From NCBI GenBank assembly GCA_965153355.1, contig OZ231126.1, positions 8,866,001 through 8,930,000 on the forward strand: DNA of 64,000 nt, read 5' to 3'. The position numbers and the translations under genes were made by a program. A model generated the notes under the pieces. The model was not told the origin of the DNA. It saw only the letters and a list, made by a program, of their open reading frames with translations, and ran no database searches. Source of the stretch: Flaccisagitta enflata (taxonomy: Eukaryota). Below are positions 12,811-27,900 of this stretch, in pieces. How positions within the stretch are numbered: position 1 is the stretch's first letter; every line of letters begins with the position of its first letter.

Positions 12811-12978
12811 ATGATGGTGGTTGGATGTTCAACTTTTCCGCCCCTGAAGTTGGATTTTACGATAATCTCAGCTTTTCTAATGGAACCAACTTTACTCTTG
12901 CCCCGCCTCCGAAATACACCACCTGGCAAATCATATCCATCTCTGTCATTGTGTCCATCATCTGTATCGTCACTATAG
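12811..12978 (+). CDS. GPCR exon: N-terminus and TM1 (first in-frame ATG 12825; upstream exon possible)
   Basis: (TC)n-CAG acceptor ending 12810, donor GTAAGA at 12979; [52 protein letters not shown] with four NxS/T sequons. Confidence 0.82.
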   Translation: MMVVGCSTFPPLKLDFTIISAFLMEPTLLLPRLRNTPPGKSYPSLSLCPSSVSSL

Positions 12979-15900
12979 GTAAGACGTTTGATACATCATC
13001 TGTATCGTCACTATAGGTAAGTCGTTTGATTCATCATCCCTATTGTCAGTGTTGCTAAGACTTTGATACATCACCTGTATCGTCACTTTAGGCAAGACAT
13101 TTGATTTATCCTCTGAACTGTCACTTCAGGTAAGACAATCAACTAATCATCTGCATCGTCACAATAGTAAGACATCTGATTTATCATCTGTATCGTCATT
13201 ATATGCAAGACGTTTGATTTATCATTTGTATGGTCACAGGTCACTGTAGGTTAGACGTTTTATACATTATCTGTTTCTACACTATAGGTCAGTTTTGATC
13301 GATTGACACATCATCTGTATCGTCACTATAGGCTTGTAGGAAAAATGTTTCAGGTAAATTTCGGTGCATGGTATGCTCACAAGTCAAAATTGTTCGAAGA
13401 CATACGGTTTACGATCACAATCACAATTAGTACGCACACTTGAACAGACACACACACGCACACACTTATTTACCTAAGTAATCACACACACAGAAACATT
13501 CCCACATACAGACTTTAACATTCACTAACACACACTCACACACACACACACACACTTTATTACACTGAAACATTTAGTGTATCACACATTCACTGATTCA
13601 AGTGAGGCTTGACTTGGAAACTCTTAGAAAGATGAATAGCTTGGATTTTAAACTGAATGATTTAGCTTTTAGTGGGAGAAAATTGACTCGATTTCGATTC
13701 AAAATGAAATAGATTTGGAGGAGATTTACTCTTGATTGACCTTGGCACCGCTACCGGCAATGTGGCTGGCACTGCAACCAGCAATGTGGCTGGCACTGTA
13801 ACCAGCAATTTGACTGGCAGTGTAACCAGCTATGTAGCTGGCACTGTTACCAACAATGTGGCTAGCACTGTAACCAGCAATGTGACTGGCACTGTAACTA
13901 GCATTGTGGCTGGCACTGTTACCAACAGTGTGGCTGGCACTTTAACCAGCAATGTGGTTGGCAGTGTAACCAGCTATGTAGCTGGTGCTGTTACCAGCAA
14001 TGTAGCTGGCACTGTAACCAGCAATGTGGCTGGCACTGTAAACAGCAATGTGACTGGATTTGTATCGAGCAATGTGGCTGGCAATGTAACCAGCAATGTG
14101 GCTGGCACTGCAACCAGCTTTGTGGCTGGCACTGCAACCAGCTATGTGGCTGGCACTGCAACCAGCTATGTGGCTCGCAATGTATCTAGCAAAGTGGCTG
14201 GCACTGTAATCAGCAATGCCGCTTGCACCGGTAACAGCAGTGGCGTTGGCAATGCCGCTGGCACCGCAACCAACAACACAGCTGGCATTGAAACTGACAG
14301 TCTTGCTTGCCAGAAAAGCAAGTATTGCAACTGCCATCACATATGGATTCATTATCACCATATAAGGGCACCATTCGATGAAGGCACCGCAACTTGAATG
14401 TCTCCTTTGGGACTCACAACCATTACAACTGGTGCCACAGCCACCATCACCATGTACCATTCCTTAAAAGCGCCATTTGATGAAGGCACCGCAACTTGAG
14501 TGTCTCCTTTGGGACGCACAACTGCTACAACCGGTACCACAGTCAGCATCACCTTGTACCATTCCTTAAGAGCGCTATTTGATGAAGGCACCGCAACTTA
14601 AACGTGTCCTTTGGGACGCACAACTGCTTCAACCGGTACCACAGTCACATCACCTTGCACCATTCCTTAAGAGCGCCATTCAATGAAGGCACCTCAACTC
14701 GAATGTCCCCTTTTGGGACGCACAGCTGGCACCGCTACCGCCATTGAATAGCTCCTCGAAGTCGCTCAGCCGGCTCCATTGCCAAATTGAGCGTGAAAGG
14801 TACTCCCCTGGAGACCGAATTTCTCACTTACAACTTGAATTATTCAATAAGATTTAATCAGATTGGTTTCATGGTTTTTTTCTTTCATTTTACCTCTTCT
14901 TCTTCTCTTATTTCTTTTCTTTCCTTTTTATTATCTTTTTTTTTTCTTACCAGGATTTTTTTCTTCTTTTGTGTCAGAGGAAAAATTTTAGCTTTAGATT
15001 AGCGAGGAATGGGAGACAACATTCGGTCTGTCGGTTTGTGTGTATGGTATTCCGTCTCTCTCTGTCTGTCTGTCGGTCTGTCTGTCTGTCTGTATCTCTC
15101 TCTCTCTCTCTCTCTCTCTCTCTCTCTCTCTCTCTCTCTCTCTCTCTCTCTCTCTCTCTCTCTCTCTCTCTCTCTCTCTCTCTCCTCTCTTTCAATCAGA
15201 AAACTCCATTTGTTCCATGGACATCTAGAGAGTATTTTGATTGAGAAACACATATAGATTGTACCAGCGGTAAGAGAACAAGCCCGACCGGGCAACGATG
15301 CGTCCAGGCTGTGTCTCAGCGTGTATTGATCATGTGACATATGTATGGAGAGACAGATGGACGAACAGATGGGTAAAAAAAGACTCTCAAACATGTTTGT
15401 TGATCATTTGTTTCAGTGTAGGATATCACCGTGGCCAAAAACAGGCCTCTGAGAAACGCGGTTTTTGCACAGGCGTAACGGACGGACGGACGGACGGATG
15501 GACTGACAGACGGATGGACCGACGGACGGACCGACGGGTGGACCGACGGACAGACCCTCTTATAGAGATGCGTTCCTGTCGGACGCATCCAAAAAAGTTT
15601 CTTTGTATTGAGCAACTGATCAATCAACCTATTCATCTATCCACCTATTCATCTATCCAACTATCCATCTATGTGCTGGTTAATCTATCTGTCTATTATC
15701 TATCTATTATCTATTTCTGTTTCTGTCTGTCTATCTATCCATCTATATATCTATCTTTCTTCTTATCTATCTATCTATCTATCTATCTATCTATCTATCC
15801 ATCTATCTATCTATCTATTTATCTACCAAAAGATCTTGTCAGACAAAAAAACGATGAGAGATTGAATATGTATTGTCTTTTGGTTGGATGAAATGTCAGT

Positions 15901-24900: not shown

Positions 24901-27900
24901 TTGTCTATGCCTTTGCCTGATTGATTGTCTATGCCTCTGCCTTTGCTTGATCTCTTGTCTGTGCTTTTGACTCTGCCTCAATCATTGGCTCAAGCCTCAG
25001 GTGCGGTGTTCTTGCTTTTACTCGAAATCGTTCAAAAACTAAAGTCTTCCGTCTTTCCGTCTTTCATTGAAAAGGACGGTTCTTTTTTTAGTCGCGTGCA
25101 CGCGAATCTACAACCCGCTTTGTCCGTCGGTCGGTCGGTCGGTCGGTCGGTCGGTCGTTCGGTCGGTCGGTCGGTCGGTCGGTCTGTCACACTTTACTTT
25201 TTTTTATGATTTTATTTCTTGGACCTCACTGCTCCTGCCCACGTTATCTAGTGACCTCAAATATGGCCCCTGCCCACCCGCACGCGACTTCGGTAGCCGT
25301 GTATCCGGCCTTGTTTTTCAATAATTAGTTATTTAAACGAGCATCATTTATCTTGTTTGACAGGAGGTGGTAGAATTTCTTATTTATCTTAAGTTATTTA
25401 AAGCTTTTTTACAAAGTTGAGAAATATTTCTAAATCTTTACCAGTGATTCTTTTTTTCATCGAAATTCTTTTTCATTATCGAGTACAAGGCAGAAAATTC
25501 TGTATATCCTAGATGTAACTCTCAGCGAATACTGAATTAATCAAGTTGCTATCATTTTCTTTTAAACACCCGCTACTGGAGAACAGTCAAAATTGTAGTC
25601 ATATTAGTAACAAAAAGCCAGGCCTGTATATTCTTGAGTTTCCCCCCCCCCCGGTGGGGGGGGGAAAAAATCAAAGGGTCTGGAGATGGGGAAGGAAATC
25701 AAAGGGGGAAAAAAGAGAAAAAAAGGAAATTTGGGGAAAATATAACTTTTTACAGTACCAAATCATAAAACTCAATTAGTAAAACACAATTTAACACTAT
25801 TTAAACCTTAACCACATAGTTTTATTGCTATATGGGGAAGAAAATCATGGATATAAAAACGCGTCGCGGGGAAGAAAATCAAAGGCAGGGGGGGGAAAAA
25901 AAATCAAAAGTCACTCAAGAATATACACCCCTGCAAAAAGCATAACTAATTTCCTAAGGAGATCTAATGGATCTAATGGATGATCATTCACTTGCGATGC
26001 CATTATTTTATTTTCAAACACCCGTTTTTTTCGATGCCACTTTTTTTTAACACCCGTTACTTACGATACCATCGCGGACAATCCCGTGAATGCGGTGCCC
26101 ACAATGAGTTACTTACGATGCCATCGTGGACAATCCCGTGAATGCGATGCCCAGTAAGAATCTGAGGACGCAGTAAGAGGGCAGATTGGGGACCCAAAGC
26201 ACGAAGACGCCGACGAAAGCCGCCAAGAGACCGGAAGTCATCGCAGTCGCTCGTCGACCGAACTTGTCGGACAAATAACCGCAAAACGTGCAGCCGATGA
26301 TGCAGCCCACGAAGAAGAACACTTCCGTCAAGTTGACGAGATATTCCCGGTCGCAGATCAAATCCCACTCCAAGGCTAAAGACGTCGTGTTTGCGTACGA
26401 GGTGGATGGTTGAGAAAGGGACGATGATGAGGAAGGGGAGGAGGAGGAGGAGGAAGAAGAAGAAGAGTTTGTGGGATATTTTGTGGGGGTAATTATGTAT
26501 TCAACTACAGTCGTAGTAGTGTTTAAGTGTCCATTTGCGTCGTCTCCATTGGAACTGCGGTGCACAAGATTCAATCAGAATTGGCACATTATTAACATTA
26601 AGACCACTTATACCATATTTATATGTATTTTTTTTTCTTCAGTTTTAGGCTTTTTGTGATGCATAAACAATATCACAGCATTTTTTGCCAAGTAGCCTAC
26701 CTTCTACGTTATTTTGAATGATACCCAATTTCTCATCTAAAGCTGTGATTTTTGACAAGAAATAAAGGCCTCTATACTAAAATTCAGTACAGTTAAACCC
26801 CGCTCCAGCGGACAAGCTTCTAATTTGGAAAAAAGTCGAAGAGACGAAGTCCCTTCGGTCTTTTTGAGTCCTGCAGAGAAAAACGGATTTCCCTTTGTTT
26901 TATGAAGCGTTTGGGAAAGTTGATGCATTTTGGGGGCAGAACGAGACTACGCATGAAATTAATAGCTAAGAAAGAGCTAATTCTCCTCTTTCAGATGACG
27001 CCAAGCAGAATTCTGTGCGATCGATAGTTTTGGAGCTATGATTTTTTAAATCTTTTTTTATTTTTTCGCATTTTTCTCATTTTTCCCCAAAACGCGGAAT
27101 CGAGTTAATTGAAGTCTCTCTCTCTCTCTCTCTCTGGTCTGTCTGTCTCTGTCTGTCTGTCTCTCTCTCTGTCTCTCTCTCTCTCTCTCTCTCACTCTCT
27201 TTTTCTCTCTCATTTTCTCCAGCAGCATTTACGACTTTTTTCCTACGGCGATTATTGGTAAAATTTCGCCTAAATCAAACATTATTTTCGGTCCCTGTAG
27301 CCTATTTTCTTTTATTTCCTACATTAGCTATGATAGAACTCCGCCTATAACAGACAAAATTTGTGGGTCCCTTAAAATCCTTTGGAGCGGGATTCAACTG
27401 TAGATAGAAAAAAATGATCAGGTCAGTAGTATGATTGAGTTTTGCGCACCGAGTTTCGTAATTGTCGCAATTCAAGTCTTTGGGAATCCATGTTGCCATC
27501 GTGTTGCCCAAATAAAGGAACACATTTGAAAATCCGACTACAAAATGCAGGCAGAAGATTCCCAACGGAAACCAACCACAGATGCCCAATTCCAACAACA
27601 ATCCGTCCAAATATGCGCCGCCTTTCGCCATCTTTTATACACTTATTTTCAGATTTTGGGTGTGTGTGTCTTTTTTCTATGATTGTTGTTACTATACTTT
27701 CTTTTGACAGCCTTTTTTTTCACATCGATTCACATGTGCGATTTTTCATTTACATTCACAACCTTTTTTTTTTTTTTTTTTTAATTTCTTATTTTTTCTC
27801 CATCGTCGAACGTTTTTTGTCACCTTGTTCTTGTTCTTGTTTCTTTACCTCTTTTCGTTTTCGAGTTAGATTGTTTTTAGATGCGTGGTGATGCTTCCTT

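What the first reader, a model, noticed from the sequence alone, without database searches (positions are those of the whole stretch)
12956..26153. Systematic exon-edge echoes: exon boundaries of both genes tandemly copied into flanking intron/UTR
Seen at five independent sites with unrelated units: GPCR donor (38 bp x ~10), SLC22 stop region (~130 bp x ~5), SLC22 exon-4 start (~45 bp x2), exon-3 donor (~8 units), exon-2 donor (52 bp x2). In each, one terminal copy is the functional exon edge and the others lie in non-coding sequence. Inference: either a process that preferentially duplicates exon edges (transcription/splicing-linked), giving raw material for decoy splice sites and intron gain, or a high general duplication rate filtered by selection.
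Basis: partly seen in the sequence, partly recalled or inferred. Interest (0 to 1): 0.75.

Follow-up and report, generated by a model that had tools for sequence, protein, structure and literature searches.

The report
Splice-junction "mirage" repeats in two genes
Short stretches covering the end of an exon and its splice signal have been copied head-to-tail into the neighbouring intron at several places in two genes of a marine animal; this is a known repeat type ("mirages"), found here at only about 1 in 25 sampled exon edges and at most a few times more often than elsewhere in the DNA, though it comes in local clusters.

Summary
All five arrays are real. They sit at 4 of 15 splice edges plus one stop codon of a muscarinic receptor gene and an SLC22-like transporter nested antisense in its intron, so "systematic" overstates it. 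They match the amphioxus "mirages" and the human F7 intron-7 repeat. I ran the proposed test on a sample of the same genome: 21 of 592 splice edges carry an echo (3.5%), against 2.5-3.6% in non-coding DNA, ratio 1.0-1.4. Stricter post hoc backgrounds give up to 2-3.6. Copies fade out more than 60 nt inside exons, breakpoints do not favour the splice site, and no copy comes from spliced mRNA. Best reading: ordinary DNA-level tandem duplication, filtered by selection. Two things remain unexplained: echoes cluster in patches of a few kilobases (P about 0.002), and exon-copy differences are more often synonymous than neutral decay predicts. RNA gave no reads, so decoy use is untested. The scan has noted this pattern before in other genomes.

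The parts
12811..12978 (+). Muscarinic acetylcholine receptor-like GPCR, exon ending in TM1; its donor (GT at 12979) lies in the first repeat unit
   Evidence: homologues named muscarinic receptor; open frame across five window exons
12956..13332 (+). Donor echo array, 38 bp x about 10 (23 exon nt + 15 intron nt); two decoy donors (13017, 13130) score 11.5 against 10.7 for the real one
16604..17299 (-). Array of the last 132 coding bases of the SLC22-like gene, copied into the presumed 3' UTR; first copy holds the stop codon (17173-17171)
17171..17592 (-). SLC22-like gene, coding part of exon 4
   Evidence: open frame from exon 2 to the stop, acceptor score 12.9
17593..17668 (-). Acceptor echo of exon 4, proximal part (period 82)
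17669..18866 (.). Dispersed element with terminal inverted repeats of about 30 bp and a 4-bp target-site duplication, inserted into the acceptor echo; carries a nested 21-bp minisatellite element (17934-18440)
   Evidence: inverted match; TSD read from sequence; 40 of 40 scored genome matches at 89-100%, one being this copy, from 644 candidates
18867..18895 (-). Distal remainder of the acceptor echo, with a decoy AG (score 11.0)
19203..20200 (-). Exon-3 donor echo array, units of about 120-170 bp each with a CAAT/ATTG microsatellite, about 7 copies
20138..21303 (-). SLC22-like gene, exon 3 (weak donor, score 3.4)
   Evidence: Pfam Sugar_tr and MFS_1; frame
26050..26153 (-). Exon-2 donor echo, 52 bp x 2; the decoy donor (26064) has the same 9-nt sequence but lies beyond an in-frame stop
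   Evidence: DNA contigs bridge it
26117..26554 (-). SLC22-like gene, exon 2
   Evidence: Pfam Sugar_tr; 79% identity to P0301; acceptor placed by phase, inferred
27450..27631 (-). SLC22-like gene, exon 1 (start codon 27631); no echo at either end
   Evidence: tblastn with P0301; echo scores
47389..47478 (+). Muscarinic receptor exon, no echo
51892..52002 (+). Muscarinic receptor exon, no echo
54373..54537 (+). Muscarinic receptor exon, no echo
56017..56261 (+). Muscarinic receptor exon (3' end not fixed), no echo at its acceptor

Best explanation
These are mirage-type minisatellites made by ordinary DNA-level tandem duplication in a genome rich in tandem repeats, and sorted by selection. A 30-170 bp stretch is duplicated with breakpoints that ignore gene structure (inferred: slippage or microhomology repair), and is then expanded by unequal exchange (inferred). 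A duplication wholly inside an exon breaks the frame and is purged. One that straddles a donor, an acceptor or the stop codon leaves one intact edge facing the exon and puts the extra copies in non-coding DNA, so it survives. The extra splice sites are probably silent (inferred from F7 and amphioxus, not shown here). Because one copy is held by selection and cannot be deleted, edge arrays stay recognisable longer than purely intronic ones, which would give up to roughly 2-3 fold apparent enrichment (inferred).
For: Shown: 21 of 592 sampled edges (3.5%) against 2.5-3.6% of non-coding positions, ratios 0.98-1.41, all bootstrap intervals including 1. Copy rate falls from about 4% at 12-25 nt inside the exon to 0.3-0.8% at 60-90 nt and 0 at 90-120 nt. 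Exon share of the unit does not depart from uniform (22 units, mean 0.46, KS P 0.13). No spliced-junction copy among 384 junctions. A stop codon is echoed as well as splice sites, in two genes on opposite strands. Echo rate rises with the local non-coding duplication rate, from 2 of 128 and 3 of 228 to 10 of 162 and 6 of 74 edges (Spearman P 0.055), and window 13-27 kb has a local rate of 6-7% against about 2% on either side. Copies carry stops and non-synonymous changes.
Against: With short, complex, non-repetitive units only (post hoc), the ratio reaches 2.1-3.6 against introns, with intervals up to 7.9. Echoes cluster by locus (beta-binomial LRT P 8e-5; permutation P 0.002), and the two densest loci, L148 (5 of 10) and L142 (3 of 8), have ordinary local rates of 2.8% and 2.7%. 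Window 47-64 kb has a high local rate (5.7%) but none of its 7 tested edges is echoed. 54 of 109 exon-copy differences are synonymous, against 36-39% expected (P 0.002-0.014).
Confidence: 0.62

Rival explanations
1. Edge-biased recombination at homology boundaries. Exons are the most alike part of two homologous chromosomes. Repair synthesis that starts in an exon stalls where intron similarity drops, and re-anneals a little upstream. This leaves a copy of the exon edge, possibly from the other allele, and does so repeatedly in recombination-active patches a few kilobases long.
For: Clustering not explained by local background. In the L148 gene 6 of 20 edges are echoed, all within 4 kb (the two upstream exons in L185 are assigned to this gene by profile order). 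Post hoc ratios of 2-3.6. Synonymous excess between exon and copy. Stop codons are affected too. Clustering in single genes is also described in amphioxus (PMC3087553, PMC3902484, passages).
Against: The all-inclusive test shows no enrichment. Breakpoints do not crowd the splice site. The little allelic data seen (2 differences in 485 bp, run X2) looks too low to supply the synonymous excess. No direct test was run.
Confidence: 0.22
2. A transcription- or splicing-linked process (R-loops, RNA-templated repair, spliceosome-bound DNA damage) duplicates splice-site regions, as in the first reader's first option.
For: Per-locus clustering. Most copies retain GT or AG.
Against: 0 spliced-junction copies among 384 junctions. 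The stop-codon array has no splice site. Exon 2 of the echo-rich SLC22-like gene gave no reads in about 6% of a polyA run. Myosin edges, presumably highly transcribed, are not above average (11 of 319). Within the L148 gene echoes fall in one 4-kb patch, not along the whole transcript.
Confidence: 0.06
3. The extra splice sites are kept by selection as regulators (decoy or recursive sites, alternative exon ends).
For: Decoy donors score as high as or higher than the real ones. Synonymous excess in some young copies. One acceptor array is shared by paralogues L142 and L144.
Against: Of the 22 measured sample units 17 are not multiples of 3, nor are the four window splice-edge units; the exon-2 decoy lies beyond a stop. 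Copies decay, and one is interrupted by a transposon. In F7 and amphioxus the extra sites are mostly silent (PMC1557585, PMC3087553, passages).
Confidence: 0.06
4. Assembly artefact.
For: The genome is repeat-rich; four of five arrays were not checked against reads.
Against: Copies are 70-94% alike, with indels and a transposon insertion. The exon-2 echo is bridged by contigs of X1 and X2, and partly by X3 from another study.
Confidence: 0.02

Closest known systems
Amphioxus 'mirages' (Adh3, globins BflGb6 and BflGb9, troponin C, PGBD5); PMC3087553 and PMC3902484, passages read
   Same: Minisatellite-like tandem copies of exon-intron boundaries at both donors and acceptors, units of 10-160 bp, AG/GT kept in many copies, several per gene, proposed as a route to intron gain.
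   Different: Different animal lineage (closest named relatives of one sampled protein are mostly molluscs, nemerteans, annelids and flatworms at about 55% identity or less). Here one array is at a stop codon. Silence in splicing and length polymorphism, reported for amphioxus, are untested here. A background rate was measured here; none was seen in the passages read.
Human F7 intron-7 37-bp VNTR, and the IFI6 (6-16), CBS, LMNB2 and PDGF arrays listed with it; PMC1557585, passages read
   Same: First unit spans the exon-intron boundary and the donor is reiterated downstream; the 38-bp GPCR array is almost the same in layout.
   Different: F7 pseudo-sites are identical copies and were tested: only the most upstream is used. 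Here copies are about 70% alike and use is unknown.
Intron gain by tandem duplication (Rogers model as cited in PMC3087553; internal tandem repeats in human segmental duplications, PMC2812944, passages read)
   Same: Duplications that include splice signals are the raw material.
   Different: In that model the repeat becomes a new intron between two coding parts. Here the copies lie in existing introns or beyond the stop; 0 of 308 sampled introns show a strong duplication signature.

Membership tests
Mirage minisatellites | Tandem unit spans an exon-intron boundary | tested here: met
   Four of five arrays; the stop-region array does not span a splice site
Mirage minisatellites | One terminal unit is the authentic exon edge, the rest are non-coding | tested here: met
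   Open frames through the terminal copies; shown by homology and phase, not by RNA
Mirage minisatellites | Unit length in the minisatellite range (10-160 bp reported) | tested here: met
   38, 52, 82, about 120-170 and 132 bp
Mirage minisatellites | Many copies keep AG/GT signals | tested here: met
   Decoy scores
Mirage minisatellites | Normal splicing is not disturbed | tested here: inconclusive
   RNA run X10 gave 0 reads on window 25330-27050
Mirage minisatellites | Copy-number polymorphism or somatic instability | tested here: inconclusive
   Only the 2-copy echo was laid; X1 and X2 show the same two copies, X3 covers it in part
Intron gain by tandem duplication | Intron ends repeat the flanking exon sequence on the intron-length diagonal | tested here: not met
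   0 of 308 introns score 12 or more; 1 scores 10 or more against 0.1 expected; the five window arrays lie in existing introns or past the stop
RNA-templated duplication | Copies contain spliced exon-exon junctions | tested here: not met
   7 pattern hits among 384 junctions: 6 at the junction's own donor or acceptor, 1 in a genomic acceptor echo

The most novel reading that the evidence does not exclude
In this animal, exon edges act as homology boundaries at which recombination repair preferentially makes short duplications, in bursts confined to patches of a few kilobases. This would give a real 2-3 fold excess of mirages, clusters such as L148 (6 echoed edges in 4 kb) and this window, and copies that differ from their exon mainly at synonymous sites because they were templated from another allele. 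It would supply the mechanism that the amphioxus globin paper calls unclear.
Probability: 0.2. Interest if true: 0.62.

Novelty: new member of a known kind. Interest (0 to 1): 0.3.

Why it matters
The arrays themselves are a known repeat type. The useful part is the measurement: a sampled rate of about 4% of splice edges and an upper range of a few fold over background rule out a strong edge-targeting process in this genome. If the residual clustering and synonymous excess hold up genome-wide, they would point to a testable recombination mechanism for mirages. The arrays are also natural tests of splice-site choice among competing copies, especially duplicated acceptors, where the last copy must win.

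Tried and rejected
RNA check: run X10 (about 6% read) put 0 reads on window 25330-27050, so it is no test. First shuffle control without the repeat mask gave 1,959 of 120,000 false positives because shuffled microsatellites match each other; repeated with the mask it gave 45 of 202,751. Out-of-sample look for more echoes in the L148 gene and the muscarinic gene: none at the 4 edges in L185 or the 2 in L186; L187 held no exon hit. Pfam search for transporter paralogues gave only 11 matches and contributed no edges to the final set. A protein search for SLC22 paralogues in the genome found only the window copy. The original Adh3 paper was not held under the identifier I recalled; I know it only through citations. 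Literature searches listed no genome-wide count of boundary-spanning repeats against background; the library lacks most subscription papers, I read only listings for most hits, and I read no supplements. No earlier notes exist for this genome.
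Full report
Observation. All five repeats are in the sequence. Tandem Repeats Finder and self-BLAST give 38 bp x 9.6 at 12956-13332, a 132-bp array at 16604-17299, a 50-bp match of period 82 at 17537-17668, units of about 120-170 bp at 19203-20200, and 52 bp x 2 at 26050-26153. Copies are 70-94% alike with indels, which argues against misassembly. For the 52-bp echo, contigs of X1 (0 differences) and X2 (2 differences, no gaps) bridge both copies, and a contig of X3 from another study covers 25934-26127. 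X1 may be the source sample and shares a study with X2.

Genes. The window is G000:C1:8866001-8930000 of a 794-Mb genome; a few marine metagenomes share words with it. The + strand gene is a muscarinic acetylcholine receptor by its homologues. Its exons at 12811-12978, 47389-47478, 51892-52002, 54373-54537 and 56017 onward join in one open frame. It has exons 27631-27450, 26554-26117, 21303-20138 and 17592-17171; exons 2 to 4 give an open frame to the stop, and exon 1 comes from a 79-85% identical relative. It lies antisense inside the receptor's 34-kb intron. Echoes occur at 1 of 9 receptor splice edges, 3 of 6 transporter splice edges and the transporter's stop codon, but not at its start codon. 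The stop-region array is not at a splice site. The exon-4 copy includes the acceptor and was later split by a dispersed inverted-repeat element at 17669-18866 with a 4-bp target duplication, so that echo is older than the insertion.

Genome test, design. I took 184 loci (about 0.99 Mb fetched; 0.90 Mb non-redundant including the window) around Pfam matches for GPCRs, myosins, sugar transporters, kinases and SNF transporters. Profiles gave 647 exon hits and 395 paired junctions. After dropping weak junctions, 748 edges remained, 593 of them unique: 321 myosin, 226 SNF, 26 GPCR and 20 kinase. The five flagged arrays are not in this set; six echo-free window edges are. An edge counted as echoed if its last 12 exon bases lay in an ungapped match of score 15 or more to a copy 12-1200 bases into the intron, with simple repeats masked. 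The background applied the same test to non-coding positions, counting each array once through its first unit. False positives were 45 of 202,751.

Genome test, result. 22 of 593 edges were positive; I dropped one whose copy lies in an exon, leaving 21 of 592 (3.5%). One retained positive (L183) has an uncertain junction inside its array. Background was 3.1% (introns), 2.5% (non-repetitive introns), 3.6% and 2.7% (all non-coding). Ratios were 1.14 (0.60-1.91), 1.41 (0.68-2.46), 0.98 (0.52-1.53) and 1.30 (0.67-2.16). Inspection showed that the background includes satellite-like and low-complexity units, so I ran stricter versions after seeing the data. Seven settings by four backgrounds gave ratios from 0.99 to 3.63. 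For complex units of 25-300 bp they were 2.07 (0.99-3.48), 3.05 (1.53-5.81), 1.44 and 1.94. Allowing the copy to stop up to 18 nt short of the edge gives 27 of 591 (4.6%). The fair statement is: about 4% of edges, one to three times background. The sample is dominated by two families and is about 0.1% of the genome.

Mechanism, shown. Copies cover about 4% of exon positions 12-25 nt from an edge, under 1% at 60-90 nt and none at 90-120 nt: the selection filter. The exon share of 22 measurable units does not depart from uniform (mean 0.46, P 0.13), so breakpoints do not seek the splice site. None of 384 junctions has a spliced copy nearby, so the copies are not from mRNA. No intron of 308 shows a strong sign of having arisen by duplication; one myosin intron has a 10-bp direct repeat. 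Inferred, not shown: the initial duplication chemistry, expansion by unequal exchange, silence of the decoys, and the longer visibility of arrays with one copy held by selection.

Results against that reading. Echoes are clustered: beta-binomial against binomial P 8e-5, permutation P 0.002. Part of this follows the local duplication rate. But L148, an SNF transporter gene, has 6 echoed edges within 4 kb and none at its other 14 edges, with an ordinary local rate of 2.8%. Under the fitted clustered model, 5 or more of 17 edges as in this window has P 0.047, and 4 or more of 8 as in the transporter has P 0.016, before allowing for the window having been picked for this trait. Window 47-64 kb has a high local rate and no echoes. 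Across 26 echoes, 54 of 109 differences between exon and copy are synonymous, where neutral decay predicts 36-39% (P 0.002-0.014). Origin from another allele would explain the direction, but the scant allelic data look too low. Both points stay unexplained.

Known systems. [quoted passage not shown] PMC3902484 (passage) adds PGBD5 and troponin C. PMC1557585 (passages) shows that in human F7 only the most upstream of several identical donors is used, and lists other human cases. PMC2812944 (passages) covers repeats at boundaries that form new introns. The structural tests for a mirage are met; silence in splicing and polymorphism are inconclusive. Searches listed no genome-wide rate against background, within the limits of that library; supplements were not read. 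Unchecked notes of this scan report the same pattern in sea urchin, annelid, other invertebrate and vertebrate genomes. I reached the mirage reading before seeing them and did not test them.

Verdict. Real and a known kind. It is not systematic, and a splicing-linked origin is not supported. Best explanation: neutral tandem duplication filtered by selection (0.62). Main rival: a modest, patchy edge bias from recombination at homology boundaries (0.22). Interest 0.3.

Noticed in passing
window 17171-27631 inside 12979-47388: The whole transporter gene is nested antisense in a 34-kb intron of the muscarinic receptor gene.
   Followed up: yes
window 17669-18866: High-copy non-coding element with about 30-bp terminal inverted repeats and a 4-bp target duplication; it holds a second element with inverted ends and a 21-bp minisatellite (17934-18440). 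Family not identified.
   Followed up: partly
window 12519-12808, 47329-47378, 54557-54861, 55827-56010: Long microsatellites lie within about 20 bases of four of the nine receptor splice edges. In the sample, masked sequence is 12-35% throughout introns with no peak at the edge.
   Followed up: partly
window 13753-14728: Adjacent 24-bp x 19 and 102-bp x 3.6 arrays, both multiples of three, in broken reading frames; possibly a decayed repetitive gene. No exon assigned.
   Followed up: no
window 60179-60826: Young 62-bp x 10.5 array (94% matches) not linked to any exon that I identified.
   Followed up: no
window 5829-9734, - strand: Reading frames resembling an endonuclease and reverse transcriptase of a LINE-type retroelement, in pieces (recognised by eye).
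   Followed up: no
window 31771-34184: About 400-bp inverted repeats (70% alike) flank a stretch with long open frames; probably a transposon.
   Followed up: no
window 20450-20970: Exon 3 of the transporter encodes a low-complexity stretch of roughly 170 residues in the central loop; an unseen intron there is not excluded.
   Followed up: no
L148:950-4990 (G000:C2:6928000 onward): Six echoed edges in five consecutive exons; the first donor is also the start of a 10-bp unit repeated about 28 times, each beginning with GT.
   Followed up: partly
L142 and L144: Paralogous SNF genes share a 65-bp acceptor array, so it predates the gene duplication or has been copied between them.
   Followed up: partly
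L154:5119-5360 (same intron as in L055): Myosin intron whose first 10 bases repeat the start of the next exon; by the Pfam match ends, many paralogues seem to lack an intron there. Possible recent intron gain.
   Followed up: partly
309 sampled junctions: First exon base after the acceptor is G in 227 of 309 and last exon base before the donor is G in 262 of 309, a strong exon-side bias (partly shaped by the scoring).
   Followed up: no
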